From Heptranchias perlo (Eukaryota), in contig NC_090333.1 of assembly GCF_035084215.1 (NCBI RefSeq), positions 36,766,001 through 36,830,000 on the forward strand: a stretch of 64,000 nt of DNA, read 5' to 3'. Positions 296 to 61,220 of this stretch are shown piece after piece (within the stretch, counting starts at the first letter, position 1; every line of letters begins with the position of its first letter). The notes under the pieces are model-generated. The model had not been told where the DNA came from. It did not search any database and saw only the letters and a list, made by a program, of their open reading frames with translations. Made by a program: the position numbers and the translations under genes.

Positions 296-750
296 CTTAT
301 CTTAGCTACCCTTGTAAGGTCATTGAGTCTCTTCCTGCACTGTGTGGCAATTCTTGGGATGGTGAAAGAAGCACTGACTATCTCTGCCACTTCCCCCCCA
401 CACACCCTTCACAATGGGGCTTCCTGCCTTCAGAGCCAACCATCTTGCTCTTCTGGACCTCACCTGTCAAAAAGATCTCTATGGATGCATCTGAGAATCT
501 GGGAGTCCTTCCAGCTGCTGACATCCCCAAGGCTGCTGCTTCAGCCATTCTTGGAGAAAAGTGATGTTGCCCTTTAACTGGCTGCAGCCTTTTAAAAGCC
601 CCACCAGAACTGAAGTTTCCTCCCTCCCAGTGATGATACGTTATCAGGAGCAGTTTACCGCTCCAAACCCAACCTACATTGCAGATGAGGGCCCCGCAAG
701 AAAACTGCAGGTTGGCAGCCCGTACCGATGGGAGGAGAATTCAACTCATA
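296..750 (-). mobile_element. Harbinger relic carrying a Myb/SANT ORF2 exon
   Basis: EVAEIVSASFTIPRIATQCRKRLNDLTRVAK matches the Harbinger Myb/SANT motif. It is followed by a decayed donor (AAG|ATAAG), with a weak TIR-like end near 750. Confidence 0.6.
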
Positions 751-1469
751 ATATCAACCTGGCCTAAACCCATAATTTGCATGGCTGCACCTTAGCTAGG
801 CAGTGGAGACTGGCAGTGTATAAGGATCCATAGTCCAGCATGAGTAAGCACCTTCAGGAAAAGAAGGAAGGCAAGGGAACAAAATAGAAAAAAAAGACAT
901 ACTGCAAAGTAAACAAACACCATCATGGTCAATTACTATGAGGTATATTGGGTGGATTTTATAAATTTGATGGAAAAAAAATCTGATTCAGGATCAGACT
1001 CCATTATACCCTGAACAGACTACAGTCTAACTGAACCAAAATGAAAGTCTGTTTGTCTTATACAAAAATGCTCCAGTGGTTGCCGGGTTTACACTGAGAA
1101 TAGGAGCTGGGAACAAAAGCAGATGTCTGATGCGATGCTATAAATCAAAAAGATTGACTGGTAAATTCATGTGTCAATCACTGACTCATGGACCATCTAA
1201 AATGACTGCTCCATCTACAAATGAAATGAATGAAGTGGCTGTGAGATCACCAGTGAGGCGAGTGTATAAACTCCAGAGTAAACTCCATCCAGGACATACA
1301 GCAAAGGGGGCATACAGTAGATCAGAAAATTGCCTAGCATTTCTTTTTTGCAAGGAGTATCATAATTTATGGAATCCATCAAAAAGATCACACCCATAAT
1401 CTTCCTATGTTTATTGTTTTCCCCCAAACATCAATAAGATCAAAAGATAATTACTATCTTAATTCATCC

Positions 1470-2250
1470 ATCCAGAGAGATCCTTGTTGCATTCAGTTAT
1501 TTTTTATAATTTTTCCAGGGTTTTGGCCTCCACCATTCTACCTGGAAGTTTATTCCATACGTTGGTTACTCGTTCTGTGAAGAAGTCTTTCCTGATATCA
1601 GTTCTAATATTACCTTTTACCAGTTTCAACCCATGTCCCCTAGTTCTATACCCATGTTTTAATTTAAAGTAACGTTCCAGCTTTTTCTATCTTATCTTAT
1701 ATACCTCTATAAGAGCAGCTCTCAAACACCTCCTTTCCAAGCTGAAAACCCCAAGTTTCTCCAGTCTTTCCTCATAACTCAGACTATTAACACTAGAGAT
1801 CGGCCTCATGGCTTTTCTTTGCAATGACTCCAGCACTTGAATGTCTCTCTTATTTCTTGTCAAATAGAACTGGACACAGTATTCAAGGTGCAGGCTGACC
1901 AGAGCACTATAAAGTTTGATCATTACCTCCTCTGACTTATGTTCTGCTGCTTTGGCTATGCAGTTCAATATCCTATTGGTCTTGTTGATTACTACAATGC
2001 ATTGGTTGAACAGGTTTAGTGCTGAGTCGGCTAAGACTCCTGGGTCTCTTTCAGCTTCATCCTTAGCTATTTCATTGAGTACATGTGTTGTCTATTTTTC
2101 CTTCCTGTGTGTAGTACTTTACATTTGTCTGCATTAAAATTCATCTGCCATTGTTCTGCCCACTTACATGTTTCATCCAACTTGTTTTGCAATTTCTGAG
2201 CTGCCTGCTCCAGTTACACAGCCTCTTCTAGTTTGGTATCATTTGCAAAT
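1470..2250 (-). mobile_element. CR1 LINE 3' fragment
   Basis: ORF 1687-1968 reads LYSALVSLHLEYCVQF...LSYEERLEKLGVFSLERRCLR, the CR1 RT C-terminus. Confidence 0.85.
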
Positions 2251-2930
2251 TGATTCAATCAATAATGCCCAGCTTTCAGTGACTGTCATTCTACACACTT
2301 TACAACATGTATACTTATTCACTCTCAACCAGAGTCAATAATATACAAGTAGCACTACAATAAATTATATATACTTGATTGATATGGATGTAATTGGTGT
2401 AAATCGCACCTGAGTAGTCTCACAAGATTGTAAACCAATATGTGGATAGCAGAATGACAGTGCTTTGATCTCCATTCACATCTAATTACAGCAAAAGATC
2501 TGTCATGCAAAAACACCAAACTGTAGTTAATTATTGTGAAGAATTAAACACCCACTAACTTATACATCCACAAATCAGCATCAGTCCAGCTGCCTACCTT
2601 CCCATTCATGCTCACCGTCTTTCATATTAATGTTTAAACAATAGACAAGATTGGTCTTGTTGTTTATTTAAGTTGCTGCCTGTATTTCTTTAGCACAAGC
2701 TAAAAGCACAGCAGGGGCGGATGCTCCCCCACAAATGTTCAATTTTAGACAGTTTATTTGGTGCAGTATCCAGTATTTTGCAGTAAAATTTATTGTATTC
2801 TTTATTCAATATATTAGAATCCACTGAGTAGAACAGAAAACCACGATCACAAATACATGTCAAGAGGCCACCTCATGATTCATCTCCCTGTTTTATATAT
2901 TTCAACGCCCAAATGCAAAAAATACATAAA

Positions 2931-3570
2931 TCTGGAGGATGGCCTTGAGGAGAATCCAGCACCTGGAGGCAGCCTGGAGAAAGAGCTTGGGAACAGGAGG
3001 TGGCCTGGGGAAAGCTCAGGACCAAGAGGCGGCCTGGGAGACAGCTCCAGACCTGGAAATAGCCTGGACCTGGAGGAGGGCTGGAGGAGAGCTCAAAACT
3101 TGAAAGAGGCCTGAGGAAGGTCAGCTTCAGACCAATAGGTTGCCTGAAGCAATGTACAGGACCTGGAGGATGCCTGCAGGAGAGTTCAGGACCTGGAGCC
3201 GGTCTGGGGAAGAGGTTTGGATTTGGTGAAGCTGGAGGAGAATTTGTGACATGGAGGTGTCTTGGAGGAGTGCACCTCCAGATTCTACCCTTCATCTTTC
3301 AGATCCACCCTTGATCACAGATATCTTCATGATATTCAGCGTTCCTCAAACAAAATCTACAACAAGATCTGGAGGTGGCCTGAAGGAGAGCTCTGGACCT
3401 GTAGGAGGTATGAACGAGAGCTCGGGGCCTGAAGTTAGTCTGGTGGAGAGCTCCGAACTTGGAAGCAGCCTGCAGGAGAGTTTGGAACTTGGAGGATTCC
3501 TGAAGGAGGCCTTGGGAGACCGCTGAAGTAGGAATCTGCAGGCAGCCTGGAGAAATAATTCAAAGGTGGA
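2931..3570 (+). repeat. Degenerate 30-bp tandem repeat in two blocks
   Basis: Unit is approximately cctggaggtggcctggaggagagctcagga. It translates on + as decapeptides SGGGLKESSG/PVGGMNESSG/PEVSLVESSE/LGSSLQESLE. Confidence 0.8.
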
Positions 3571-11700: not shown

Positions 11701-11779
11701 GAGTCTAAAGAGAGTTTTTTTTTAAATTTGTTCATGGGATGTGGGCGTCACTGGCAAGGCCAGCATTTATTGCCCATCC

Positions 11780-14688
11780 CTAATTGCCCTTGAGAAGGTG
11801 GTGGTGAGCTGTCTTCTTGAACCGCTGCAATCCATGTGGTGAAGGTTCTCCCACAGTGCTGTTAGGAAGGGAGTTCCAGGATTTTGACCCAGTGATGATG
11901 AAGGAACGGCGATATATTTCCAAGTCAGGATGGTGTGTGACTTGGAGGAGAATGTGCAGGTGGTGTTGTTCCCATGTGCCTGCTGCCCTTGTCCTTTTAG
12001 GTGATAGAGGTTGCAGGTTTGGGAGGTGCTGTCGAAGAAGCCTTGGCGAGTTGCTGCAGTGCATCCTGTGGATGGTACACACTGTGCGCCGGTGGTGAAG
12101 GGAGTGAATATTTAGGGTGGTGGATGGGGTGCCAATCAAGCTGGCTGCTTTGTCCTGGATGGTGTCGAGCTTCTTGAGTGTTGTTGGAGCTGCACTCATC
12201 CAGGCAAGTGGAAAGTATTCCATCACACTCCTGACTTGTGCCTTGTAGATGGTGGAAAGGCTTTGGGGAGTCAGGAGGTGAGTCACTGACCGCAGAATAC
12301 CCAGCCTCTGACCTGCTCTTTTAGTCACAGTATTTATGTGGCTGGTCCAGTTAAGTTTCTGGTCAATGGTGACCCCCAGGATGTTGATGGTGGGGGGTTT
12401 GGTGATGGTAATGCCGTTGAATGTCAAGGGGAGGTGGTTAGACTCTCTCTTGTTGGACATGGTCATTGCCTGGCACTTATCAGGCATGAAAGTTACTTTC
12501 CACTTAGCAGGCCAAGCCTGGATGTTGTCCAGGTCTTGCTGCATGCGGGCATGGAATGCTTCATTATCTGAGGGGTTGTGCATGGAACTGAACACTGTGC
12601 AGTCATCAGCGAACATCCCCATTTCTGAACTTATGATGGAGGGAAGGTCATTGATGAAGCAGCTGAAGATGGTTGGGCCTAGGACTCTGCCCTGAGGAAC
12701 TCCTGCAGCAATGCCCTGGGGCTGAGATGATTGGCCTCCAACAACCAGTATCATCTTCACTTGTGCTAGGTATGACTCCAGCCACTGGAGAGTTTTCCCC
12801 CTGATTCCCATTGACTTCAATTTTACTAGGGCTCCTTGGTGCCACACTCTGTCAAATGCTGCCTTGATGTCAAGGGCAGTCACTCTCACCTCACCTCTGG
12901 AATTCAGCTCTTTTGTCCATGTTTGGACCAAGGCTGTAATGAGGTCTGGAGCTGGGTGGTCCTGGCAGAACCCAAACTGAGCATCGGTGAGCAGGTTATT
13001 GGTGAGTAAGTGCTGCTTGATACCACTGTCAACGACACCTTCCATTACTTTGCTGATGATTGAGAGTAGACTGATGGGGCGGTAATTGGCCGGATTAGAT
13101 TTGTCCTGCTTTTTGTGAACAGGACATAGCTGGGCAATTTTCCACTTTGTTGGGTAGATGCCAGTGTTGTAGCTGTACTGGGACAGTTTGGCTAGAGGCG
13201 CGGCTAGTTCTGAAGCACAAGTCTTCAGCGCTACGGCCGTGATGTTGTCAGGGCCCATAGCCTTTGTTGTATCCAGTGCACTCAGCAGTGTCTTGATATC
13301 AAATGGAGTGAATCGATTTGGTTGAAGACTGGCTTCTGTGATGGTGGGAATATTGGGAGGAGGCCGAGATTGATCATCTACTCGGCACTTCTGGCTGAAG
13401 ATGGTTGCAAACGCTTCAGCCTTGTCTTTTGCACTCACGTGCTGGATTCTGCCATCATTGAGGATGGGGATGTTCACGGAGCCTCCTCCTTGCGTTAGTA
13501 TTTAATTGTCCACCACCATTCACGACTGGGTGTGGCAGGACTGCACAGCTTTGATCTGATCCATTGGTTGTGGAATCGCTTAGCTCTGTCTATATCATGC
13601 TGATTCTGCTGTTTATCATGCATGTAGTCCTGTGTTGTAGCTTCACCAGGTTGGCACCTCATTTTTAGGTACGCCTGGTACAGTTCCTGGCATGCTCTTC
13701 TACACTCCTCATTGAACCAGGGTTGATCCCCTGGCTTGTTGGTAATGGTAGAGTGACGAATATGCCAGGCCATTAGGTTACAGATTGTACTGGAATACAA
13801 TTCTGTTGCTGCTGATGGCCCACAGCACCTCATGGATGCCCAGTTTGAGCTGCTAGATCTGTTCCGAATCTATCCCATTTAGCACGGTGGTAGTGCCACA
13901 CAATACATGGTGTCCTCAATGTGAAGGCAGGACTTCATCTCCACAAGGATTGTGCGGTGGTCACTCCTACCAATACTGTCATGGACAGATGCATCTGCAA
14001 CAAGGTCAAGTAAGTTTTTCCTTCGTGTTCGTTCGCTCACCACCTGCCGCAGGCCCAATCTGGCAGCTATGTCCTTCAGGACTCTGCCAGCTCGGTCAGT
14101 TGTGGTGCTACCGAGCCACTCTTGGTGATGGACATTGAAGTTCCCCACCCAGAGTACATTCTGTGCCCTTGCTACCCTCAGTGCTTCCTCCAAGTGGTGC
14201 TCAACATGGAGGAGGACTGATTCATCAGTTGAGGGTGGGCGGGTGGTGGTAATCAGCAGGAGGTTTCCTTGCCCAGGTTTGACCTGATGCCTTGAGTTTT
14301 CATAGGGTCCAGAGTCAATGTTGAGGACTCCCAGGGCCACTCCCTCCTGACTGTATATGACTGTACTACCACCTCTGATGGGTCTGTCCTACCGGTGGGA
14401 CAGGACATACCCAAGGATAGTGATAGGAGAGTCTGAGACGTTGGCTGAAAGGTATGATTCTGTGAGTAAGGCTATGTCAGGCTGTTGCTTGACTAGTCTG
14501 TGGGACAGCTCTCCCAATTTTGGCACAAGTCCCCAGATGTTAGTGAGGAGGACTTTGCAGGGTCGACTGGGCTTGGTTTGCCTTTGTCGTGTCTGGTGCC
14601 CAGTGGTCCGATGCAGGGTGGTCCGTCCGGTTTTATTCTTATGATTTTTGTAGCGAGATTGTACAACTGAGTGGCTTGCTAGGCCATT
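11780..14688 (-). pseudogene. EN-RT polyprotein of the tRNA-headed LINE (one nonsense codon at 14389-14391 plus frameshifts)
   Basis: EN motifs LLTNIWGL, PDIALLTESYL, GNFNVHH, SDH. RT motifs NYRPISLLS, LDIKAAFDRV, GVPQGRVLGP, MFADD. The 565-aa RT part is open over 11780-13477. Confidence 0.9.
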
Positions 14689-14904
14689 TCAGAGGGCAAT
14701 TAAGAATCAACCATATTGCTGTGGGTCTGGAGTCACATTTAGGCCAGACCGGGTAAGGATGGCAGGTTTCCTTCCCTAAAGGACATTAGTGAACCAGATG
14801 AGTTTATACGACAATTCGATAAAAATTTCATGGCCACCATTACTGATGCTAGTGTTTACTTTTAACTTAATTAATTGAATTTAAATTCCCCAGCTGCCAT
14901 GGCA

Positions 14905-14958
14905 GGATTTGAACGCATAACTCCAGACTATTAGTCCAGTAACATAACCACTATGCTA
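14905..14958 (-). promoter_or_regulatory. Internal RNA Pol III type-2 promoter (A and B boxes)
   Basis: A box TAGCATAGTGG (14958-14948) and B box GTTCAAATCC (14914-14905), with tRNA-like spacing near the element's 5' end. Confidence 0.75.
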
Positions 14959-16084
14959 CCATACCCAGTGCAAAGGAGAGTCTTTAGACTAAAGCTAGCA
15001 GCAAAATTCCTGACAGAATGTCCACAGTATCAAACAGTTCAACATGCAGGCTAGTAACACCTTTAAATAGTGCTTAACAAACCATAAAAAAAATCATGCC
15101 AAGTCTGTGCTTTAATGTGGGTTCATCATGTTGAGAATATTGGAAAGTTGGTGTATAGGAACAGGAAACCATGCTCATTTTCACCTCCTTAATCCATGCC
15201 GTGGCTCTCCACACTCCAGCCACTCGCCCTCACTGGTTTCTCCCAGCACCATCACAGCCTCAACTGTACGTGTTTTAGCCTCTCACCATGCCCAAAAGCT
15301 TCACTTTCTTCAATCCTCCGTGCTACGGCCATCCATCTGCACGGTTCCTTCCAGTGCCATCACAGACCAAAGTAAAATAAGTTAAAGCAATTGGATATTC
15401 AAATAAATTCAGGGTAGCCTTCATTTTTAACTTTTGAGACAGATTATTCTTTGTTATGATGTAAAAACAAAAAAAATGTTGATTGTTTTTGTATTTATTA
15501 TGATGATGTAGCCAGTGTAACAATCAAGTTCTAAGGGGAAACAATAATCGCATCCTGCCAGCACTAAATATCATAATGTAATTAGTTTTATAAGCAGAGT
15601 AGGCTTAACATAAACTGGCAATATACCAGTATATTGAGAGAACATTCTGAATTAAAGAAATCTTCTGCAGTTTAATATTTCTCTAATTCTACACTAGAAC
15701 ATAAGCTATTTATATCTTGGTCTTCAATCCCAACTGCACTCTGCAGGAGATTGACTATAATATATTAAATTTGCTATGTATCTTTAATACTCCCTATCTT
15801 GGCATTACTATTCTGTCACAGAAGTCACTCCTACAGCTACATGAAGCTATCTACCACTACATGAAGCTTCATAAACTCCAGATCCCCTTTCCTTTACCTA
15901 CAGTACCACTGTGCACATAGCTTCATTGCTCCAGCACATCACCAACATTCCCAACCTTCCTCCTGGTAACCGTAATTTTGGAACAACTTACCATTTTCTT
16001 TATCCCTTACTTCAGTTTCCCCCTTTTCTATGTTTAAAGTAAACGATTCATGAAACTTTAAGTGTTTTTCTTGCTGAAAGATTA

Positions 16085-17829
16085 ATTCGGCAGGCTCAAC
16101 ATAATTAATGTAAGCAAATTAACAGTAATAAAGGAAATACTGGCACAAAAGAGTGACAAATCCCCAGGACCAGATGGTTTCCATCCCAGGGTTTTAAAGG
16201 AAGTAGGTGTGAACATTGCAGATGCCCTAACTATAATCTTCCAAAGTTCTCTCAATTCAGCAACTGTTTCTTTAAATTTGAATTTTTTTTTTAATTTGTT
16301 CATGGGATGTGGGCGTCACTGGCAAAGCCAGCATATGTTGCCCATTCTTAATTGCCCTTGAAAAGGTGGTGGTGAGCCGCCTTCTTGAACCGCTGCAGTC
16401 CGTGTAGTATTGTATATATCATGCTGCGATTTAAGAAAGGTTAGATAGGGAAACCAGGGAATTATAGACCAGTTAGCCTAACATCTGTTGTTGGAAAATT
16501 ACTAGAGTCTATAATTAAGGATAGAGTGACTGAATACCTTGAAAATTTTCCACTGATCAGAGAGAGCCAGCATGGATTTGTAATGGGTAGGTCATGCCTG
16601 ATGAACCTGACTGAATTTTTTGAAGAGGTGACTAAAGTAGTGGACAAGGGAATGTCTATGGATGTTGTTTATATGGACTTCCAGAAGGCATTCGATAAAG
16701 TCCCTCATAAGAGACTGTTAGCTAAAGTTGAAGCTGAGGGCAAATTATTGACCTGGTTAGGAAATTGGCTGAGTGGCAGGAGACAGAGAATAGGGATAAT
16801 GGGCAGGTAGTCAAATTGGCAGGATGTAACTAGTGGTGTCCCACAGGGATCTGTGTTGGGGCCCCAACTATTCACTGTATTTATTAACAACTTAAATGAC
16901 AGGATACAGAGCTACACATCCAAGTTTGCTGATGACACAAAGATAGGCAGCTTTGTAAGAAGTGTAGATGGAAGCATAAAGTTACAGAGAGATATTACTA
17001 GGTTAAGTGAATGGGAAAAACTGTGGCAAATGGATTTCAATGCAGGCAAGCGTGAGGTCATCCAATTTGGACCTAAAAAGGATAGATCAGAGTACTTTCT
17101 AAATGGTGAAAACACGAAACAGTGGAGGTCCAAAGCGACTTAGGGGTCCATGTACATAGATCATTAAAATGTCATGGACAGGTACAGAAAATAATCAAAA
17201 AAGCTAATGGATTGCTGGCCTTGTATCCAGAGGACTAGAATACAAGGGGGTAGAAGTTATGCTACAACTACACAAAGCCCTGGTTAGACCACATCTAGAG
17301 TACTGTGTTCAGTTCTGGGCATCACACCTTAGGAAGGATGTATTGGCCTTGCAGGGAGTGCAGCATATATTTACTGGAATGATACCTGGACTCCAAGGGT
17401 TAAATTATGAGGAGAGATTACACAAACTAGGGTTGTATTCCCTGGAATTTAAAAGATTAAGGGATGATTGGATTGAAATTTTCAAGATATTAAGGGGAAC
17501 TGATAGGGTAGAGAGAGAGAAACTATTTCCGTTTGTTGGAGAGTCTAGGACTAGGGGAATTAGAGCCACGACTTTTGGGAGTGAAGTGGGAAAACACTTC
17601 TGCACGCAAAGGGTGGTAGAAGTTTGGAACTGTCTTCCGCAAATGGTAGTTGAAGCTAGCTCAATTGTTAATTTTAAATCTGAGATTGATAGTAACTTTG
17701 GTTAACAAAAATCTAAGGAATATGTGGCTAAGGTGGGGATATGGAGTTAGATCACAGATCAACCATGATCTCACTGAATGGCGGTACAGACTTGAGGGGC
17801 TAAATGGCCTATTCCTGTTCCTATGTTCC
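16085..17829 (+). mobile_element. CR1 LINE RT and 3' end (5'-truncated), interrupted near 16270-16430
   Basis: DKSPGPDGFHPRVLKE, YMDFQKAFDKVPH, SKFADD and LVRPHLEYCVQFW, with tail ctgttcctatgttcc. Same family as 31262-33892. Confidence 0.9.
16284..16405 (-). mobile_element. 3' tail fragment of the tRNA-headed LINE family nested in a CR1
   Basis: Near-identical to 11715-11835, including the T-run (poly-A on minus). Confidence 0.85.
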
Positions 17830-17912: not shown

Positions 17913-18481
17913 CCTGCCACAATGCCTTTCCACCATCTACAAGGCACAAGTCAGGAGTTTGATGGAATACTCTCCACTTGCCTGGATGAGTGCAGCTCTA
18001 ACAACACTCAAGAAGCTCAACACCATCCAGGACAAAGCAGCCCGCTTGATTGGCACCCCCATCCACCACCCTAAACATTCACTCCCTTCACCACCGGCGC
18101 ACTGTGACTGCAGTGTGTACCATCCACAGGATGCACTCCAGCAACTCGCCAAGGCTTCTTCGACAGCACCTCCCAAACCCGCGACCTCTACCACCTAAAA
18201 GGACAAGAGCAGCAGGTACATGGGAAAAACACCACCTGCACATTCCCCTCCAAGTCACACACCATCCCGGCTTGAAAATATATCGTCCTTCCTTCATCGT
18301 CGCTGGGTCAAAATCCTGGAACTCCCTTCCTAACAGCACTGTGGGAGAACCTTCACCACACAGACTGCAGCAGTCCAAGAAGGCGGCTCACCACCACCTT
18401 CTCGAGGGCAATTAGGGATGGGCAATAAATGCTGGCTTTGCTAGTGACGCCCACATCCCTTGAACGAATAAATAAAAAAAA
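17913..18481 (+). mobile_element. 5'-truncated copy of the tRNA-headed LINE family
   Basis: TIYKAQVRSLMEYSPLAWMSAA..HHHLLEGN* followed by the same tail and an A-rich end. Confidence 0.9.
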
Positions 18482-23131: not shown

Positions 23132-26100
23132 ATGGTTGTAGTAGGCGACAGTCTAGTTAGGGGGATTGACACTGTTCTCTGCAGCCAGGAGCATGAGTCC
23201 CGAAGGCTATGTTGCCTACCCGGTGCCAGGGTTAAGGACATCTCCTCCGGAGAAGAACTTGAAGTGGGAGGGGGAGGATCCAATTGTCATGGTCCATGTA
23301 GGTACCAACGACATAGGTAGGACTAAGAAAAAGGTTCTGCTGAGAGAGTTTGAGCAGCTAGGGACTAAATTATAAAGCAGAAACACAAAGGTAATAATCT
23401 CTGGATTATTACCCGAGCCATGAGCAAATTGGCATAGGGTCAATAGGATCAGGGAGATGAATGCTTGGCTCAAAGATTGGTGTGGGAGAAGTGGGTTTCG
23501 ATTCGTGGGGCACTGGCACCAGTACTGGGGAAAGAGAGAGCTGTTCCGTTGGGATGGACGACACCTGAACCATGCTGGGACTAGAGTTCTCGTGAATCGA
23601 GTAACTAGGGAGGTAGATAGGGCTTTAAACTAAATAAGGGGGGGAGGGTCCCGGTGGAGAGAAATCTAGAATGCTAAAGAGAAAAGACAAAGAAGCAGTG
23701 CAGGAAAGTGATTGGGGTAAGGATAACCAGATTGTGTCAGGAAGGGACAGAGCGCACAAACAAAAGACAAAAAACAGGGTCCAGGTAAGAAAAAATGGTA
23801 ATAAGACAAATAGGGCCATAGTACAAAATAATGTTAAGATGTCTAAAAATGTTAAAAAGACAAATCTAAAGGCACTGTATCTGAATGCACGAAGCATTCG
23901 TAATAAGGTAGACGAATTAACAGCGCAAATAGATGTAAACGGATATGATATAATAGCAATTACTGAGACATGGCTGCAGGTGACCAAGGCTGGGAGCTGA
24001 ATATCCAAGGGTATTCGATATTTAGGAAGGACAGACAAAAAGGAAAAGGAGATGGGGTGGCGTTGTTAGTAAAGGATGAAATCAAAGCAATAGTGAGAAA
24101 GGATATTGGCTCAGAAAATCAAGATGTAGAATCAGTCTGGGTGGAGTTAAGAAGCACCAAGGGGCAGAAAACACTGGTGGGAGTTGTCGATGGGCCTCCA
24201 AACAGTGGTGGTAATGTAGGGGATGGGATCAAACAGGAAATTAGAGAAGCATGTAACAAGGGTACTACAGTAATCATGGGTGACTTTAATCTGCATATAG
24301 ACTGGCCAAACCAAATTAGCAATAATACTGTGGAGGATGAATTCCTGGAGTGTGTACGAGATTTTTTTTAGACCAGTACGTTGATGAGCCAACCAGGGAA
24401 CAGGCTATCCTAGATTGGGTATTGTGCAAGGAGAAGGGGTTAATTAATAATCTTGTTGTGCGGGGTCCTTTCGGGAAGAGTGACCATAACATGATAGAAT
24501 TCTTCATTAAGATGGAAAGTGAAGTAGTCCAATCCGAAACTAGGGTCCTAAATCAAAACAAAGGAAACTACGAAGGTATGAGGAGTGAGTTGGCTATGAT
24601 AGATTGGGAAGCTTCATTAAAAGGCATGACGGTGGATAGGCAATGGATAACATTTAAGGAACGCATGCATGAATTGCAACAATTATACATTCCTTTCTGC
24701 TGCAAGAACACAAAAGGAAAAGCGGCCCAACTTTGGCTAACAAAAGAAATTAAGGATAGTATTAGATCCAAAGAGGAATCATATAAAGTTGCCAGAAAAG
24801 GTAGCAAGCCTGAGGATTGGGAGCAGTTTAGAATTCAGCAAAAAAGGACCAAGAGATTGATTAAGAGGGGAAAAATAGAGTATGAGAGTAAACTTGCAAG
24901 GAACATAAAAGTGGACTGTAAAAGCTTCTACAAGTATGTAAAAAGAAAAAGATTAGTGAAGACAAATGTAGATCCCTTACAGTCAGAAATTGGAGAATTT
25001 ATAATGGGGAACAGGGAAATGGCAGAGCAATTAAACAAATACTTTGGTTCTGTCTTCACGGAAGAGGACACAAATGACTTCCCAGAAATGTTAGGGAACC
25101 AAGGGTCTAGTGAGAAAGAGGAATTAAAGGAAATTAGTATTAGTAAAAAAAGTGCTGGAGAAATTAATAGGACTGAAAGCCGATAAATCCCCAGGACCTG
25201 ATAATCTGCATCCTAGAGTACTAAAAGAGGTAGCCATGGAAATAGTGGTTGCATTAGTTGTCATCTTCCAAAATACAATAGATTATGGAACAGTTCCTGC
25301 AGATTGGAGGGTGGCAAATGTAACCCCACTATTTAAAAAAGGAGGGAGAGAGAAAACAAGGTACTACAGACCGGTTAGCCTAACATCAGTAGTAGGGAAA
25401 ATGCTAGAGTCTATTATAAAGGATGTGATAATAGGACATTTAGAAAATATCAACGGGATTAGACAAAGTCAACATGGATTTATGAAAGGGAAATCATGTT
25501 TGACAAACCGACCGGAGTTTTTTGAGGATGTAGCTGGTAGAATAGATAAGGGAGAAACAGTGAATGTGGTTTATTTGGATTTTCAGAAGGCCTTTGATAA
25601 AGTCCGACATAAGAGGTTGGTGTGCAAAATTAAAGCACTTGGGATTGGGGGTAATATACTGGCATGGATTGAAAATTGGTTAACAGACAGGAAACAGAGA
25701 GTAGGAATAAATGGGTCTTTTTCGGAGTGGCAGGCGGTGACCAGTGGGGTACCGCAGGGATCAGTGCTTGGTCCCCAGCTATTCACAATATATATCAATG
25801 ATTTGGATGAGGGAACCAAATGTAATATTTCCAAGTTTGCTGACGACACAAAACTAGGTGAGATCGTGAGTTGTGAGGAGGATGCAAAAAGGCTTCAAGG
25901 CGATTTAGACAAGTTGAGTAAGTGGGCAAATACATGGCAGATGCAGTATAACATGGATAAATGTGAAGTTATCCACTTTGGAAGGAAAAACAGAAAGGCA
26001 GAGTATTATTTAAATGGTGACAGATTGGGGAATGTTGATGTACAAAGGGACCTGGGTGTCCTTGTACACCAGTCACTGAAAGCAAACATGCAGGTGCAGC

Positions 26101-26778
26101 AAGCAGTTAGGAAGGCAAATGGTATGTTGGCCTTCGTTGCAAGAGGATTTGAGTACAGAAGCAAGGATGTCTTACTGCAGTTATACAGGGCCTTGGTGAG
26201 ATCACACCTGGAGTATTGTGTGCAGTTTTGGTCTCCGTACCTAAGAAAGGATATACTTGCCATAGAGGGAGTGCAGCGAAGGTTCACCAGACTGATTCCT
26301 GGGATGGCAGGACTGTCGTATGAGGAGAGATTGGGTCGACTCGACCTGTATTCACTCAAGTTTAGAAGAATGGGAGAGGATCTAATTGAAACATATAAAA
26401 TTCTGACAGGGCTAGACAGACTGGATGCAGGGAGGATGTTTCCCCTGGCTGGGGGGTCCAGAGCGAGGGGTCACAGTCTCAGGATACGGGGTAGGACATT
26501 TAGGACTGAGATGAGGAGAAATTTCTTCACTCAGAGGGTAGTGAACCTGTGGGATTCTCTACCTACCACAGAAGGCTGTGGAGGCCAAGTCACTGAATAT
26601 ATTTAAGATGGAGGTAGATAGATTTCTAGACACAGAAGGCATCGGGGGCATGGGGAGAGAGCGGGAATATGGTATTGAGATAGTGGATCAGCCATGATCA
26701 TATTGAATGGCGGAGCAGGTTCAAAGGGCCGAACGGCCTACTCCTGCTCCTATTTTCTGTGTTTCTATGTTTCTGTGC
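23132..26778 (+). mobile_element. Long CR1 LINE: ORF1 SGNH-esterase part plus complete but frameshifted ORF2 (EN+RT)
   Basis: VVVGDSLVRG, HVGTND; YLNARSI, AITETWL, MGDFN, SDHN; [26 protein letters not shown]; tail ttctgtgtttctatgtttctgtg. Lies antisense in SHISAL2A intron 1. Confidence 0.95.
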
Positions 26779-29663: not shown

Positions 29664-32600
29664 TCATAGTAGGTACAGCACAGGAGGAGGCTATTCGGCC
29701 CATCATGCCTGTGTCGGCTCTTTAGAAGAGCTATCCAATTAGTCCCATTCCCCTGCTCTTTCCCCATAGCCCTGTAATTTTTTTCCTTCAAGTATTTATC
29801 TAATTGCCTTTGAAAGTTATTATTGAATCTGCTTCCACCATCCTTTCAGGCAATGCATTCCAGATCATTACATCTCGCTGCGTGAAAAATATGTTTCCTC
29901 ATGTCACCTCTGGCTCTTTTGCCGATTACCTTAAACCTGTGTCCTCTGGTTACCGACTCTTCTGCCACTGGAAACAGTTTCTCCTTATTTACTCTATTAA
30001 ACCCCTTCATGATTTTGAACATCTCTATCAAATCTCCCCATAACTCCTCTGTACTAAGGAGAACAACCCCTGCTGCTCCAGTCTCTCCATATAACTGAAG
30101 TCCCTCATCCCTGGTACCATTCTAGTAAATCTCTTCTGCACCCTCTCTAAGGCCTTGACATCCTTCCTAAAGTGTGGTGCCCAGAACTGAACACAATGCT
30201 CCAGCTGAAGCCTAACCTGTTTTTATAAAGGTTTAGCATAATTTCCTTGCTTTTGTACTCTATGCCTCTATTAATAAAGCCCAGGATCCCATATGCTTTT
30301 TCAACAAACTTCCCAACTTGTCCTGCCACCTTCAAAGATTTGTGTATGTGCACCCTAGGTCTCTCTGCTCCTGCACCCCCTTTAAAATTGTACCATTTAG
30401 TCTATATTGCCTCTCCTCATTCTTCCTACCAAAATGTATCACTTCACGCTTCTCTGCATTAAATTTTATCTGCCATGTGTCTACCCATTTCACCAGGCTG
30501 TCTATATCCTCCTGAAGTCTGTTACTGTCCTCCACATTGTTTACTATATTTCTGAGTTTCGTGTCATCTGCAAACTTTGAAATTACACCCTTTATACCCA
30601 AGTCCAGGTCATTAATATGTATCAAAAAGAGCAGTGGTCTTAGTACTGACCCCTGGGGAAAACCACCGTATACTTCCCTCCAGTCTGAAAAACAACTGTT
30701 CACCACTACTCTCTGCTCTCTTAGCCAATTTTATATCCATGCTGCCACTGTCTCTTTAATCCCATGGGCTTTAATTTTGTTAACAAGTCTATTATGTGGT
30801 ACTTTATCAAATGCCTTTTGAAAATCCATATACACAACATCAATTACACTACCCTCATCAACCCTTTCCATTACTTTATCAAAAAACTCAATCAAGTTAG
30901 TCAAACACAATTTTCCTTTAACAAATCCATGCTGACTTTAATTTATTAGCACATACTGTTCCAAGTGCCAATTAATTTTGTCCCGGATTATTGTCTCTAA
31001 AAGTTTCCCCACCACCGATGTTAGGCTGACTGGCCTGTAATTGCTGGGTTTATCCTTCTCTTTTTTGGAAAATTTGCAGTCCTCCAGTCCTCCGACATCA
31101 TCCCCATATCTAAGGAGGTTTGGAAGATTACTTCCCTCCATAACCTTGGATGCATCCCATTTGGACTTGGTGACTTTTCTACTTTGAGTACTGCCAATCT
31201 TTTAAGTACCTCCTCTTTACATATTTTTATCCTATCCAATATCGCTACTACCTCCTCCTTTAGGAACATAGGAACAGGAGTAGGCCATTTAGTCCCTCGA
31301 GCCTGTTCCACCATTCAATGAGATTATGGCTTATCTGTGACCGTACTCCATTTACCCGCTGTAGCCCTATATCCCTTAATACCTTTGGTTAACAAAAATC
31401 TATCAATCTCAGATTTAAAATTAACAATTGAGCTAGCAAAAAACTGCCATTTGTGGAAGATAATTTCAAACTTCTACCACCCTTTGCATGTAGAAGCGTT
31501 TCCTAACTTCACTCCTGAAAGTCCTGGCTCTAATTTTTAGGCTATGTCCCCGAGTCCTAGACTCCCCAACCAGCAGAAATAGTTTCTCTCTATCTACCCA
31601 ATCAGTTCCCCTTAATATCTTGAAAACTTCGATCAAATCACCCTTAATCTTCTAAACTCCAGGGAATACAACCATGGTTTGTGTAATCTCGCTTCATAAT
31701 TAAATCTACGCTGCACTCCCTCCAAGGCCAATATATCCTTCCTAAGGTGCGGTGCCCAGAACTGAACACAGTACTCCAGGTATGGTCTAACTAAGGCTTT
31801 GTATAGTTGTAGCATAACTTCTACCCCCTTGTATTCTAGTCCTCGAGATATAAAGGCCAACATTCCATTAGCCATTTTGGTTATTTTCTGTACCTGTCCA
31901 TGACATTTTAATGTTCTAGATACATGGACCCCTAGGCTTCTTTGGACCTCCACTGTTTCGAGCTTTTCACCATTTAGAAATTACTCTGATCTATCCTTTT
32001 TAGGTCCAAAGTGGATGACCTCAAACTTGCTTACATTGAAATCAATTTGCCACATTTTTGCCCATTCACTTAATCTATTATCTCTCTGTAATTTTATGCT
32101 TCCATCTACATTGCTTACAGTGCTACTTATCTTTGTGTCATTGGCAAACTTGGATATGTGGCTCTCAATCCCATCATCTAAGTTGTTAATAAATACAGTG
32201 AATAGTTGAGACCCCAACACAGAGTCCTGTGGGGCACCACTAGTCACATTCTGCCAATTTGACTATCTGCCCACTGCTGCTCAGCCAATTTCCTAACCAG
32301 GTCAGTAACTTGTCCTCAATTCCATGAGCTTCAACTTTAGCTAACAGTCTCTTATGAGGGATTTTATCAAATGCCTTCTGGAAATCCATATAAACATATC
32401 TATAGACATTCCCATTCCCTTGTCCACTACTTTAGTCACCTCTTTTTAAAAATTCAATCAGGTTCATCAGGCATGACCTACCCTTTACAAATCCATGCTG
32501 GCTCTCTCTGATCAGCTGAAAATTTTCAAGGTGTTCAGTCACTCTATCCTTAATCATAGACTCTAGTAATTTTCCGACAACACATGTTAGGCTAACTGGT

Positions 32601-34950
32601 CTATAATTCCCTGGTTTCTCTACCTCACCTTTCTTAAATAGCGGAGTGACACGTGCAATTTTCCAATCTAAAGGAACGGTTCCTGAATTGAGAGAACTTT
32701 GGAAGATTATAGTTATGGCATCTGCAATGTTCTCACCTACTTCCTTTAAAACTCCGGGATGGAAACCATCTGATCCTGGGGATTTGTCACTCTTTAGTGC
32801 CATTATTTTCTTCATTACTGTTAATTTGCTTACGTTAATTATGGTGAGTCCCCGTCCCTGATTCAAAATTAGTTTCCTTGGGGCGTCTGGCATACTAACC
32901 TCTTCCTCTCCTGTAAATACTGACACAAAGTAATTATTTAACACATCCACCATTTCCTTATTTTCATTTACAATATTACCATTGTCAGTTTTTAAGGGGC
33001 CTATATTGCTTTTGACTACCCTCTTTTTCCTAATATAATTGTAAAAAACTTTTGTGTTGATTTTGATATCCCTTGGAAGTTTCTTTTCATACTCCCTTTT
33101 TGTAGCTCAAACTATTTGTTTTGTCACCCTTTGCTGTTCTTTGTATCTCTCCCAATTGCCAGGCTCTGTGCTATTTTTTGCATTCTTGTATGTTTTTTTT
33201 AGTTTTATGTTGTCCCTTACCTCTTTTGTCATCCATGGCTGTTTTTTTTGGCAAGTAGAGCTCTTGCCCCTTAGGTGTATAAACTGGTTCTGTATCACGT
33301 TAAATTCTTTTTTGAACACTTCCCTCTGATCTTCTGTCGTTTTACCCATTAACAGATTTGCCCAGTTTGCTGTGGACAGTCTCTGTCTCATCACATTGAA
33401 GTTGGCCTTATCTAAATTTAGAATCTTAGTAGCTGATATGGGTTTCTCCCTTTCAAATACAACGTTCAACGCGATTGTATTATGATCACTATTAGATAAA
33501 TGTTCATGCACTGTTAGGCTGTTAAGCAAATCTGGCTCATTATCATTATTAAATCTAATATGGCCTGCCCCCTTGTTGGTTCTAGAACATATTGTTGCAG
33601 AAAGCCGTCCTGAACGCACTCAAGAAATTCGCTAGCTTTCTGACATGAGCTCGCCTGCTTCTCCCAATCGATATGAAAATTAAAATCCCCCATTAAAACC
33701 ACTCTGCCTTTGCTACATGCTTGTCTAATCTCTGCATTTATACATTCTGCCACTTCGTAGCTGCTACCATGGGGCCTATACACAACTTCTTCTACAGTCT
33801 TAAATCCTTTTCTATTTCTTAATTCTACCCATAGTCTCCACTGCCTGCTTACCTCTCGTTATATCCTCTCTTACCATTAAAGTAATTTCATCCTGCTACA
33901 ATGGCAGCATCCTCTTCTCTAGAGAAAATGGATACAATGTATATATTTAGTACATCAGCCATGCCCTCTGCTTCCACAAGATCTTTTTTGTCTCTAATCG
34001 GTCCCACCCTTCCTTTGACTACCCTTTTACTATTTATATGTTTATAAAAGACTTTTGGGGTTCCCTTTTATGATTGCCATTAATCTATTCACATACTCTC
34101 TCTTTGCCCCTCATTCCCTTTTTTAGATCTCCTCTGTACTTTCTGTAATCAGCCTGGTTCTCTACTGTGTTATGAAACTTACATTCGTCATAAACCTCCT
34201 TTTTCTGTTTCTTTTTAATCTCTATATCTTTAGTCATCCAGGGAGGACTAGCTTTGGATGCCCTTCCTTTCCCCCTAGTGGGAATGTGTCTACGCTGTAC
34301 CCAAACCAACTCCTCCTTGAAGGCCTCTCATTTACTGTTTTGCCTACCAATTTTTAATTCCAATCCACCTGGCCAAGATCACTTTTTAACTCACTAAAAT
34401 TAGCCCTCCTCCAGTAAAGCATTTTCACATTTGATTGTTCCTTGTCCTTTTCCATAACTATTCGAAACCTAATGATATTATGATCACTGTTCCCTCAATG
34501 CTTCCCCACTGAAACATGCTGCACCTGTCTCATTTCATTTCCCCAGACTACATCCAGCACTGTTTCCTTCCTGGTTGGGCTGGAAATACTCTGTTCCAGA
34601 AAGTTCTCTTGAACACATTTCAGGAATTCCTCCCCCTATTTGCCTTTTACAGTGTTACTGTCCCAGTCCATGTTGGGATAATTGAAGTCCCCAATTATCA
34701 CTATTCTGTAGTTCTTGCATCTTTCTGTAATTTGCCTGCAAATTTGCTCCTCTATCTCCTTCCTACTATTTGGTGGCCTATAGTATACACCCAGTAGCGT
34801 AATAGCTCCCCTATTGTTCCTCAATTCTAACCAAATAGATTCTGTCTTTGACCCCTCAACTACATCAACCCTTTCTAGTACTATAATAGTTTCTTTGAGC
34901 AATACTGCCACCCCCACACCCACTTTCTTTCCTTCCTTATCTTTCCTGAA
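29664..34950 (-). mobile_element. CR1 LINE (EN to 3' end) split by a nested CR1
   Basis: RT and 3' part at 29664-31260 (KFADD); linker and EN part at about 33893-34950 (GVYYRPPNS, IGDFNYP). Confidence 0.8.
31262..33892 (-). mobile_element. Nested CR1 LINE (EN-RT-3' end)
   Basis: Its own tail aggaacataggaacagg at 31262 interrupts the host element. Motifs LMGDFNFH, SDHN and NYRPVSLT. Confidence 0.85.
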
Positions 34951-42384: not shown

Positions 42385-44075
42385 AATTGCTGATGGACAA
42401 GTTTAATGCAAGTTTTGCCTGGTTGGGGGAGAGTATACCAGACAAACAAGGTGGACAGGACATTAGAAGAAGGTCAAAAAAAATTAAAACATTTAAAATA
42501 GAAAGAGGGGAGATAATTGATAAACTAATCAAACTAAGGGAGGTTAAGAACCGTGGTCCGGATGAATTGCATCCGTGAAATTAAAAGAAGTTAGGGAGGA
42601 GTAGCAGAGGCACTATTACATATAAATAAAAATTCACTAGAAAAGGGAAAAGTGCCAGAAAACTAGCGGACAGCTAATCTTATTCCTATATTTAAAAAGG
42701 GAGGTAGAACAAGTCCAGGGAACTATAGACCAGTCAGCTTAATATCGGTGGTAGGAAAGATAATGGAATCTTTGCTCGAAGATGTAATAGAAAAACATTT
42801 AGAAACTGAAAATATAATAAAGTGTAGTCAGCCCAGATTTCAAAAGGGAAAGTCATGCTTGACCAATTTTATTGAATTCTTTGAAGAAGTAACGGAAAGA
42901 GTAGAAAAGGGTAATGCAGTAGATGTAATATATTTGGATTTTCAAAAGGCCTTTGGTAAGGTACCGCATTGTAGATTCATGGCTAAGGTCAGAGCATGTG
43001 GAGTAGGGGGACAGGAAGCAGAATGGATAGTAAACTAGCTACAAAACAGAAAACAGAGAGTAGGGGTTAAGGGTAGCTACTCAGACTGGCAAAAGGTAGG
43101 AAGTGGTGTTCCACAGGGATCAGTGCTGGGGCCACTGTTGTTCACAATTTACATTAATGATTTGGATTCGGGAATCAACACCAAATTGAGGGGTGTAGTT
43201 AATACAAAAGAAGAATGCGTCAAAATGCATGATGGCATTAATAAACTTGCAGAATGGGCATGTAATTGTCAAATGAATTTCAATATAGATAGGTGTGAAG
43301 TAGTGCATTTTGGTAGGAAGAATAAGGAGGCCACATACTGCTTGGATAATAAGAGTCTAAACAGGATAGAGGAGCAAAGGGATCTAGGGATACAAATACA
43401 CAAATCACTAAAAATAGCAACGCAAGTTAGCATGGCCATAAAAAGGCAAATCAAGCATTAGGGTTCATTTCTAGAGGGATAGAATTGAAAAGCAAAGAAG
43501 TGATGTTAAACTTGTATAGAACTTGGTTAGACCACACTTGGAATATTGTGCACAGTTCTGGTCTCCATACTATAGAAAGAATATAGAGGCATTGGAGATG
43601 GTGCAAAAAAGATTCACAAGGATAATACCAGAACTGAGAGGATACCCTTATCAGAAAAGGTTGAACATGCTGGGGCTCTTTTTTCTAGAAAGGAGAAGGC
43701 TGAGGGGTGACCTGATAGAGTTCTTTAAGATAATGAAAGGGTTTGATAGAGTAGATGTAGAGAAAATGTTTCTACTTGTGGGAGAGGCCATAAATGTAAA
43801 ATAGTTTCTAATAAATCCAATAGGGAATTCAGGAGAAACTTCTTTACCCAAAGAGTGGTAAGAATATGGAATGTGCTACCACCAGGTGTATTTGAGGCAA
43901 ATAGCGTGGATGCATTTAAGGGGAAGCCGGATAAGCACATGAGGAGAAAGGAATAGAAGATATCCTGATAGGGTTAGATGAAGTAGGGAGGGAGGAGGCA
44001 TGTGTGGAGCATATACGCTGGCACAGGCCAGATGGGCCGAATGGCCTGTCTCTGTGCTGTAGTTTTGATGTAACT
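42385..44075 (+). mobile_element. CR1 LINE RT and 3' end, degraded
   Basis: [41 protein letters not shown]. Confidence 0.9.
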
Positions 44076-45140: not shown

Positions 45141-46430
45141 TTATTGACCCCTAGACTACACCGTTTCCAAAGCTTCTCCAGTCCAAGCAACACCCTTTAA
45201 CCCTAGCCCTTTGTTTCCTGTCTGTCAACAAACTATATTCTATCTACGCTGCTACCTTCCCTCTTATATCATATACCTAAATTTTTGAAACAAGCCTCCT
45301 GTAAGACAATTTATTGAAAGTCTTCTGAATATCCGTCTACACATCTGCTGAATTCCCTTTATCCACTCAATCACATCTTCAAATAACTGTAACTCTTGCA
45401 GCATTTCCTCATAACTGAGCTCTAATTGTATGTATTAATGTGGTTGCTCTCCTCTGCACCTTGTGCAGCAAAGAAATGGAACACAGTACTCAAAGTGCAG
45501 ATATACCATACCCTTATATAGCCTAAGGATAGTACTCTTCATTTTGTACTCAATTCCAGCAATACAATCTAAAACCTTATTTTCATTCCCTAAAGCCACC
45601 TCACGTTGCTTGTGCATATTTAACAAGTAATTGATTATACCTCCCAGGTCTCTTTCTTAATCTGTTACTTTTACTAGATACCTTGCAGGTCTCCCCTCCA
45701 AGTCACACACCATCCCGACTTGGAAATATATCGCCGTTTCTTCATCGTTGCTGGGTCAAAATCCTGGAACTCCCTTCCTCACAGCACTGTGGGAGAACCT
45801 TCACCACACGGACTGCAGCGGTTCAAGAAGGCGGCTCACCACCACCTTCTACAGGGCAATTAGGGATGGGCAATAAATGCTGGCCTTGCCAGCGACACCC
45901 ACATCCCATGAACGAATGAATAAATAAATATGCCTGCAGTTTCCTAACCCCAAATGCTTTTCTCCACATTAAATCTGTCAGACATTCTTCTGCATTGTTT
46001 AAGTTGGCCTGCAACTATTGATTTGAATTACTAACCCATATTCACATTTTCGTGTCATTAGAGAATTTAAGAATGGTCCCATTTAAGCTCTACTTTAAGT
46101 CACTAATGAAAATGATGAGCCACTTATGATCAGGCCCTAATCAGACTCACTCCCCTTAATGACAACTCTCTTTCTATCCAACATTATAGCTATGGAATAA
46201 TCACACATCTCCAATTTTTCTAATAGTCGTCTATGCAGTACTTTACTTTTAAAAATTTGGAAATCAGAACCTTAACAGGATTATCTTCATCCAGATACTT
46301 CTGCAAAGAACTCAAGCAGCTTAGTGAAGCAGAACCTATGTTTCCTAAAGCCATGCTGGGCATCCCTAAGAACTGCCAAAATATCCATTTAATCATAAAT
46401 CATACCCTGTATAATGCTTTCCAACAGAGT
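45140..46430 (-). mobile_element. Highly decayed CR1 remnants
   Basis: ILRLYKGMVYLHFEYCVPF and other weak RT remnants. Confidence 0.5.
45683..45928 (+). mobile_element. 3' fragment of the tRNA-headed LINE family
   Basis: gggcaattagggatgggcaataaatgctggccttgccagcgacacccacatcccatgaacgaatgaataaataaa. Confidence 0.9.
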
Positions 46431-51447: not shown

Positions 51448-51592
51448 TTTTGGAAATGCAACCGTTTTGTGTATAATTTCACAAATGAGAAGTGGTTTTG
51501 TAGGTGCTCAAACTTTTACTGATGTTTAATCCATAATAATATAACATTCCTTTCCATTGAATTGACCTAGTTTAGGTCATGAATTGACCTAG

Positions 51593-61080: not shown

Positions 61081-61132
61081 ACTGTTTAGACCACCCCATT
61101 CTGTTTTACAAGACCAGTTTTAATCCCTTCAT

Positions 61133-61220
61133 TTTCTTTATTTGTTCTTGGGATGTGGGTGACTCTGACAAGCCAGTATTCATTGCCCATATTTGGTTGC
61201 CTTAAAGACATTAAGAGTCA
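61133..61220 (-). mobile_element. Degraded short element joining the tRNA-headed LINE tail directly to its 5' domain end (putative ORF-less SINE partner)
   Basis: On +, ttgttcttgggatgtggg..cattgcccat..ttgcctt (like 11728-11791) is immediately followed by aaagacattaagagtca (like agggcaattaagaatca, 14693-14709). Confidence 0.55.

What the first reader, a model, noticed from the sequence alone, without database searches (positions are those of the whole stretch)
11707..14980. An autonomous-type LINE with a SINE head: tRNA A/B boxes fused directly to an EN-RT frame, no ORF1, inserted as one unit
Seen: on minus, the element reads 5'-gcactgggtatggTAGCATAGTGG..GTTCAAATCC (tRNA-type A/B boxes), then a non-coding domain of about 200 nt, the APE-EN/RT frame, a short tail and poly(A). 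A probable TSD (aaagagag / aaaggagag, one indel) encloses head and body together. Removing the element restores a palindromic empty site, so this looks like one insertion rather than a SINE lying next to a LINE. Established: tRNA heads define non-coding Pol III SINEs, whereas LINEs are generally regarded as Pol II-derived transcripts and CR1/L2-group elements usually carry ORF1. From recall only, the middle domain (..catctggttcactaatgtcctttagggaaggaaa..) resembles the Meta/SlmI SINE body. Inference: a SINE-LINE hybrid that may be the autonomous parent or partner of that SINE family.
Basis: partly seen in the sequence, partly recalled or inferred. Interest (0 to 1): 0.9.

Follow-up and report, generated by a model that had tools for sequence, protein, structure and literature searches.

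The report
Shark Zenon LINE with tRNA head
This is a decayed copy of an abundant protein-coding jumping gene of sharks and rays (a Zenon LINE) whose normal front end is the tRNA-type promoter of non-coding SINEs and whose coding strand lacks the T-runs that stop RNA polymerase III, so it may be a natural messenger RNA made by a polymerase thought to make only non-coding RNA.

Summary
Observation confirmed. Window 11715-14966(-) is a dead copy of a 3.3-kb family with thousands of copies (6,218 exact head motifs). In position-ordered samples 24 of 30 heads run into the ORF; 20 of 30 ORF starts reach the head and the other 10 are truncated; none has another 5' end or an ORF1. The family is the elasmobranch Zenon LINE. 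All seven shark and ray consensus sequences in PMC13343379 begin with this head, unremarked there, while the hagfish and coelacanth Zenons do not. Lack of ORF1 is normal for Zenon, the body shows no Meta match, and TSDs are rare. Indirect evidence for Pol III: A/B boxes are kept across sharks and rays; there is no TTTT in 3.3 kb of sense strand; TTT runs are at 25% of expectation, against 96-146% in three other LINE families of this genome and at least 54% in 64 relatives; and the ORF, under purifying selection, has no start AUG. Short head+body+tail SINEs derive from it by deletion. Transcription itself is untested. The scan has noted this family before in other genomes (e1-8041298, e1-7807155, e1-7940627, e1-8042209).

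The parts
14893..14966 (-). tRNA-derived head (tRNA-Thr(AGT)-like); the family's fixed 5' end. This copy lacks a 20-nt second hairpin present in most copies
14948..14958 (-). Pol III A box (TAGCATAGTGG)
   Evidence: exact in 20 of 32 copies; box visible in the published shark and ray consensus sequences
14906..14916 (-). Pol III B box (family GAGTTCAAATC; one change in this copy)
   Evidence: exact in 24 of 32 copies
14661..14892 (-). AT-rich linker and conserved non-coding body of unknown origin, shared with the short SINE derivatives
11780..14660 (-). Single APE-endonuclease + RT frame (972 aa in the family, basic N-terminal arm, no in-frame AUG before aa 249); broken here by frameshifts and stops
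12365..13111 (-). RT domain (PF00078)
11715..11779 (-). 3' tail hairpin and short A-tail
   Evidence: fold z -1.67, 12 of 200 shuffles as good
11707..11714 (.). Weak target-site duplication, 3' copy
14972..14980 (.). Weak target-site duplication, 5' copy (one extra base, 5 nt from the head)

Best explanation
Shown: the element is a copy of the elasmobranch Zenon LINE, an ORF1-less autonomous retrotransposon whose full-length form begins with a tRNA-derived A/B-box head. The head was gained in the shark-ray lineage and kept since. It spreads by target-primed reverse transcription (established for APE-RT LINEs) and throws off short head+body+tail SINEs by internal deletion. Inferred: the head is the element's working promoter. 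RNA polymerase III starts at the tRNA 5' end, reads all 3.3 kb because the sense strand has been purged of terminators, and stops at the first T-run in flanking DNA. The same uncapped RNA is translated from a non-AUG start at low level, and the protein binds the 3' hairpin and A-tail of its own RNA in cis and copies it. Each new full-length copy thus carries its own promoter, as a SINE does.
For: (1) Sharp shared 5' end 8 nt before the A box, with unique flanks. (2) A and B boxes are visible in all 7 shark and ray consensus sequences (one B box, HypSab, lacks a base); the A box varies only at its degenerate positions, while the D- and T-stems and the spacer differ (read by eye). (3) No run of 4 or more T on the sense strand of the 3,307-nt majority, against 18 A-, 12 C- and 6 G-runs, and no TVTTT among the 7 TTT sites. 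In the ORF, T4 is 0 vs 4.1 expected (P 0.009-0.017) and T3 is 5 vs 20 (P < 0.001). (4) Controls: CR1 of this genome T3 27 vs 28; two other LINE families of equal T content 24 vs 22 and 20 vs 14; 64 metagenome relatives T3 ratio 0.96 +/- 0.16, minimum 0.54, all with 2 or more T4; the three headless vertebrate Zenons show T-runs in their first 400 nt. (5) The ORF is under purifying selection (15:5 against a 24% synonymous expectation) and LINE forms outnumber SINE forms 24 to 3, which fits action in cis; no start AUG. (6) Type 2 Pol III promoters can give translated reporter RNA (PMC8223928, passages).
Against: No transcript evidence: the runs found were contigs without strand, start or cap. T4 absence alone is weak when codon usage or dinucleotides are held fixed (P 0.10 and 0.13; T3 P 0.001 and 0.054). 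Within this genome the A and B boxes are no less diverged than the body (3.1% and 2.8% vs 3.2%), as expected for dead copies, so selection on them rests on the by-eye cross-species reading. 3.3 kb is far beyond usual Pol III products and uncapped RNA is translated poorly (general knowledge). The tail ends in AATAAA plus an A-run, which also fits Pol II. One intact-frame copy has TTTT in its head (L370). AUG-less starts occur in Pol II LINEs too (recalled: L1 ORF2, R2).
Confidence: 0.55

Rival explanations
1. The element is transcribed by Pol II like other LINEs. The tRNA head is kept as a TFIIIC-binding or chromatin element, as part of an internal Pol II promoter, or as an RNA fold that sets the 5' end (for example by RNase P-like cutting) or helps translation. 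T-run loss has another cause.
For: LINEs are held to be Pol II transcripts (PMC5786205). AATAAA precedes the A-tail. The anticodon arm and a second hairpin look kept across species at the level of structure (by eye). T4 depletion is not significant given codon usage.
Against: It does not explain a strand-specific loss of T-runs that is absent from 3 other LINE families of this genome and 64 relatives. The cloverleaf is not the predicted fold, and the box sequences are kept while their stems are not.
Confidence: 0.25
2. Split life cycle: Pol III makes the full-length template RNA, but the protein comes from rare capped Pol II read-through of intact copies and acts largely in trans. The element then behaves as its own SINE.
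For: It explains the A/B boxes and the T-run loss without needing translation of uncapped RNA. SINE derivatives show that trans mobilisation occurs.
Against: Under trans action the ORF should decay and short forms should win, yet shared variants are mostly synonymous and LINE forms outnumber short forms 24 to 3. Capped RNA would favour an AUG start, which is absent.
Confidence: 0.17
3. A SINE happened to land in front of a truncated LINE at this locus.
For: The TSD here is weak.
Against: The junction recurs in 39 of 39 top hits, in 24 of 30 position-ordered heads and in 7 published consensus sequences.
Confidence: 0.01

Closest known systems
Elasmobranch Zenon LINEs (SquAca_Zenon-1/2/3, CarCar_, RhiTyp_, ScyCan_, HypSab_Zenon-1; PMC13343379, Genome Biol Evol 2026)
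   Same: The same family. The first 400 nt of the published consensus sequences match head, body and ORF start, closest to SquAca_Zenon-1. Six of the seven are 3.1-3.3 kb long (one is 2.9 kb), against 3,307 here. No ORF1, poly(A) tail.
   Different: The paper has 0 hits for tRNA, Pol III or promoter in its main text and 0 for tRNA in the held supplement: the head, the T-run loss and the derived SINE are not remarked there. Its Zenodo files were not seen.
Other Zenon elements (hagfish, coelacanth CR1-5_LCh, lepidopteran Zenon and its deletion derivative Persaeus)
   Same: Single APE-RT ORF and poly(A) tail; short deletion derivatives exist (PMC6740152).
   Different: No such head in the first 400 nt of the hagfish and coelacanth consensus sequences. 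Persaeus, which keeps part of the Zenon 5' UTR, has no tRNA homology or Pol III promoter.
RTE-1_DAn and relatives (Repbase, mentioned in PMC5786205)
   Same: A LINE that carries a tRNA-like sequence similar to SINE2 heads.
   Different: RTE clade. It is mentioned in one sentence as a source of false hits, with no position or function given. The Repbase entry was not seen.
tRNA-derived SINEs with conserved bodies (Meta, Deu/SacSINE1, V/HE1, CORE) and bipartite LINE-derived SINEs
   Same: tRNA head with A/B boxes, then a conserved body, then a LINE tail; the short derivatives here have this layout.
   Different: Here the head sits on the coding element itself. The body does not match Meta or Deu motifs or, by eye, the V domain. 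In the published model the head is added to an already deleted LINE; here deletion of a headed LINE suffices.

Membership tests
Zenon (CR1-group LINE) | Single ORF with APE endonuclease and RT, no ORF1 | tested here: met
   no other 5' end in 30 of 30 position-ordered ORF starts
Zenon (CR1-group LINE) | Poly(A) tail (said to be unique to Zenon in the CR1 group) | tested here: met
   definition from PMC13343379
Zenon (CR1-group LINE) | Sequence match to named Zenon consensus | tested here: met
   an exact 13-nt A-box motif found in SquAca_Zenon-2 and -3; the first 400 nt of seven rows compared by eye; the rest of each cell is cut
Zenon (CR1-group LINE) | RT groups with the Zenon clade in a tree | not testable with these tools
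   no named reference RT sequences could be loaded; the RT region is 28% identical to this genome's CR1 and 39-45% to the best unnamed and lancelet proteins
tRNA-derived SINE (SINE2) | tRNA-derived head with A and B boxes at the 5' end | tested here: met
   tRNA-Thr call only at a lowered ARAGORN threshold
tRNA-derived SINE (SINE2) | Short and non-coding | tested here: not met
   972-aa frame under purifying selection; met only by the 0.4-0.5 kb derivatives
tRNA-derived SINE (SINE2) | Transcribed by RNA polymerase III | not testable with these tools
   only contigs available; indirect support from T-run loss
MetaSINE | 66-bp Meta domain right after the head | tested here: not met
   two bivalve Meta motifs give best matches with 5 mismatches, reached by 26-39% of shuffles; vertebrate MetaSINE sequences were not visible (figure only)
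DeuSINE (SacSINE1) | Deu domain and L2-type tail | tested here: not met
   two motifs taken as Deu from BivaMD-SINE1 do not match; SacSINE1 itself was not available
V-SINE / CORE-SINE | V or CORE domain | tested here: inconclusive
   by eye only: no V domain; a stretch of about 11-13 nt at the body's end resembles BivaCORE-SINE2 and may be chance
SlmI SINE | Body similarity | not testable with these tools
   no paper or sequence found

The most novel reading that the evidence does not exclude
Sharks and rays carry an autonomous retrotransposon whose 3.3-kb, 972-codon messenger RNA is made by RNA polymerase III from an internal tRNA promoter and translated without cap or AUG. This would be a natural, long-lived exception to the rule that Pol III makes only non-coding RNA, and a direct route by which SINEs arise from a LINE through one deletion.
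Probability: 0.5. Interest if true: 0.9.

Novelty: new variant of a known kind. Interest (0 to 1): 0.72.

Why it matters
The SINE/LINE divide rests on the polymerase (Pol III and non-coding vs Pol II and coding), and a recent paper states that Pol III makes no coding RNA in normal biology (PMC8223928). A LINE with thousands of copies that has kept A/B boxes across sharks and rays and purged terminators from 3.3 kb would be a natural Pol III messenger. It would make testable how long Pol III can read and how an uncapped, AUG-less RNA is translated. It also shows SINE birth in progress: several independent deletions join body to tail. Even if Pol II does the work, the family's published description misses its 5' architecture.

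Tried and rejected
TSDs as proof of joint insertion: 3 of 32 copies had 10 nt or more with one mismatch allowed (null 0.5%; one of the three lies 29 nt beyond the tail). A stricter test gave 6 nt or more in 2 of 37 rows, and 4 rows there had an empty upstream flank through a slicing error. Rejected as general evidence. Meta and Deu identity of the body: rejected; my own first guess, SacSINE1-like, fell with it. An overlapping 75-codon upstream frame (AUG at family nt 276) as a tiny ORF1 or frameshift leader: 5 of 5 shared non-CpG changes in the overlap at nt 352-451 are synonymous in the main frame and non-synonymous in that frame, and one further change (nt 342) is the reverse; it also appears closed in 3 of 6 published lineages read by eye. 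Not supported. The AUG-GCC-UAG mini frame: its stop codon varies among copies. Self-insertion avoidance as the cause of T-run loss: A-runs, which are T-runs on the other strand, are not depleted. Low Phe content (2.0%) lies within the range of relatives (minimum 1.5%). T4 within 30 nt after the tail: 9 of 37 vs 14% background, not decisive. tRNA heads in distant relatives: none in 64 frames of 80 metagenome loci, but many contigs may lack their 5' end; viral contigs gave nothing. Rfam gave nothing relevant. A single fixed body-tail junction is rare (4 matches); junctions vary. RNA runs: contigs only, labelled RNA by guess, so no expression claim is made; small-share metagenome runs were ignored. 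Ten literature searches found no description of a tRNA-headed Zenon or a Pol III-transcribed LINE. Repbase, Dfam, Weber 2020, Nishihara 2006 and Gunnery 1995 were not readable or not read.
Full report
The observation. On the minus strand the window holds a tRNA-type head starting at 14966 (A box 14958-14948, AGT anticodon arm, B box 14916-14906), about 230 nt of linker and body, an APE-endonuclease/RT frame from 14660 to 11780, a short hairpin tail and an A-tail. The copy is dead: 5.6% from the family majority, with frameshifting deletions and stops. The proposed TSD is weak (8/9 nt, one indel, 5 nt from the head), but the two flanks form a 10-bp inverted repeat, which fits one site. ARAGORN and Rfam at default do not call the head; at a lowered threshold the family head is read as tRNA-Thr(AGT), 1 of 4 calls.

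It is a family. The genome is 3.25 Gb. All 39 non-self top hits to the head-ORF junction span it. Exact 18-mers count 6,218 for the head, 7,465 for the body and 8,524 for the endonuclease start. Top-hit lists are biased, so I classified the first 30 matches of each motif along contig 1 (the three samples share some copies). Heads: 24 of 30 run into the ORF, 3 are short head+body+tail elements, 3 are interrupted. ORF starts: 20 of 30 reach the head, 10 end within the body or linker in unrelated flank, and none shows another shared 5' end or an ORF1. Bodies: 24 into the ORF, 5 short, 1 unresolved. Similarity-ranked sets agree (endonuclease query: 15 of 29 reach the head, 14 truncated; body query: 25 of 29 into the ORF, 4 short). 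Full copies start at the same base, 8 nt before the A box, with unique flanks.

Coding capacity. Of 40 copies fetched because they reached the head region, 31 had both end motifs (8 lacked the head motif, 1 the tail motif). With the window copy, 32 were aligned. The majority is 3,307 nt with one 972-codon frame (nt 332-3247) and no Met before residue 249. The other copies differ from it by 1.3-4.5%. Variants shared among copies are 15 synonymous to 5 non-synonymous, where 24% of random changes are synonymous. Among 150 scored RT hits, ten have stop-free frames of 969-973 aa. All ten belong to this family by their 5' ends: 6 start at nt 1-13, 3 at nt 48-55 and 1 at nt 323. So the headed form is the autonomous, recently active one. 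TSDs are mostly absent.

Identity. PMC13343379 (passages, parts 2-3 of 8 and supplement searches read) reports Zenon LINEs in five elasmobranchs, hagfish and coelacanth, all without ORF1 and with poly(A). Its seven shark and ray consensus sequences begin with this head and body; the Squalus acanthias ones are closest. Only the first 400 nt of each cell are visible. The two hagfish and the one coelacanth consensus lack the head and show T-runs. The paper has no hit for tRNA, Pol III or promoter. So the family is published, ORF1 loss is ordinary for it, and the head is deposited but unremarked. The head was probably gained once in the shark-ray lineage (inference). Runs from four coded organisms hold the element. 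Distant relatives (24-41% identity) showed no A/B boxes upstream in 64 of 64 long frames from 80 loci, with the caveat of missing 5' ends.

The body and the SINE. The body matches neither two Meta nor two Deu motifs from the MetaSINE paper's supplement (PMC4824008; parts 1-3 of 6 of the text and parts 1 and 3 of 4 of the supplement read). Short elements join the end of the body (mostly nt 327-340, one at 301) to the tail at several points (nt 3175-3247) and are 85-97% identical to the LINE majority, head included. Similar skips appear in contigs of all four runs laid. Several breakpoints and a shared lineage-specific head suggest that the present SINEs arise from the headed LINE by deletion. 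Whether the LINE first took its head and body from an older SINE by template switching is open.

Is it made by Pol III? This was not measurable here: the runs are contigs. There are four indirect signs. First, the fixed 5' end. Second, the boxes: across the seven published sequences the A box varies only at its degenerate positions and the B box keeps its pattern (one lacks a base), while the stems and spacer change (by eye); the head does not fold as a cloverleaf. Third, terminators: TTTT and TVTTT are the shortest Pol III terminators (PMC8466645, passages). The sense strand has neither, against 18 A-, 12 C- and 6 G-runs of four or more. With the protein and silent-site composition fixed, T4 is 0 vs 4.1 (P 0.009-0.017) and T3 is 5 vs 20 (P < 0.001). 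With codon usage fixed, T4 is not significant (P 0.10) and T3 is (P 0.001); a dinucleotide model gives P 0.13 and 0.054. Controls show no such loss: CR1 T3 27 vs 28 and T4 4 vs 7.5; six CR1-like fragments in the window all above expectation for T3; two other LINE families with T 0.20-0.21 at 24 vs 22 and 20 vs 14; 64 relatives at ratio 0.96 +/- 0.16, lowest 0.54, against 0.25 here. Fourth, selection on the ORF with LINE forms outnumbering SINE forms suggests that the template RNA is also the translated RNA, and it has no start AUG. Pol III reporters with internal promoters do give protein, and removing a TTTT about doubled output (PMC8223928, passages).

Against: no transcript data; the length; poor translation of uncapped RNA (general knowledge); an AATAAA before the A-tail; no excess conservation of the boxes among dead copies here; and AUG-less starts in other LINEs (recalled). 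I put 0.55 on Pol III making the full-length RNA that is also translated, 0.17 on Pol III template with Pol II-derived protein, and 0.25 on Pol II throughout.

Prior art. [quoted passage not shown] Lepidopteran Zenon yields a deletion derivative without a Pol III promoter (PMC6740152, passages), and bivalve Zenons drive ordinary SINEs (PMC11481361, passages and a supplement search). PMC5499810 (parts 1-3 of 6; no supplement held) describes other shark SINEs with L2 tails. PMC7245038 (part 1 of 4) and PMC5804259 (supplement search only) added nothing. Ten searches found no account of a Pol III-transcribed LINE. Repbase, Dfam, the Zenodo files and the supplement of PMC5499810 were not visible and could hold one. 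Earlier notes of this scan describe the same family in other genomes, one with the same paper; they are leads, not support.

Verdict: real, family-wide and ancient architecture; a new variant of a known LINE clade; the striking part, a Pol III messenger, is plausible and directly testable but unproven. Interest 0.72.

Noticed in passing
window 17917-18480(+), 45692-45928(+), 16280-16408(-), 61132-61190(-): Four more 5'-truncated 3' ends of the same Zenon family in the window (82-92% identical).
   Followed up: partly
window 25164-26369, 55193-56760, 31705-32806, 42601-43446, 30296-31078, 16454-17101: CR1-type RT fragments of at least two families (97%, 88% and about 68% to the control majority); used as T-run controls.
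   Followed up: partly
window 51592-52660: Tandem array of a 52-bp G-rich unit, 20.5 copies, 96% matches.
   Followed up: no
L349 and G000 C13, C38, C424, C725, C1626: A young RT family with intact frames of about 1,310-1,320 aa, some copies spaced about 7 kb apart in tandem; possibly a site-specific Tx1/L1-type element in a tandem array.
   Followed up: no
window 14916-14924; family nt 43-66: A second hairpin between anticodon arm and B box is a duplicate of the anticodon arm here and in Squalus but has a different stem in other sharks; about 13 of 90 copies, including this one, lack it.
   Followed up: partly
window 14660-14690: The end of the body has a short resemblance to bivalve CORE-SINE motifs; may be chance.
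   Followed up: no
L368, L372, L373: Three of ten intact-frame copies are truncated at nt 48-55, at the second hairpin, keeping the B box but not the A box.
   Followed up: no
L255:head nt 87 and L264:body nt 219: Two copies are interrupted by an insert that starts with the same approximately 25 nt, suggesting another repeat inserting into this family.
   Followed up: no
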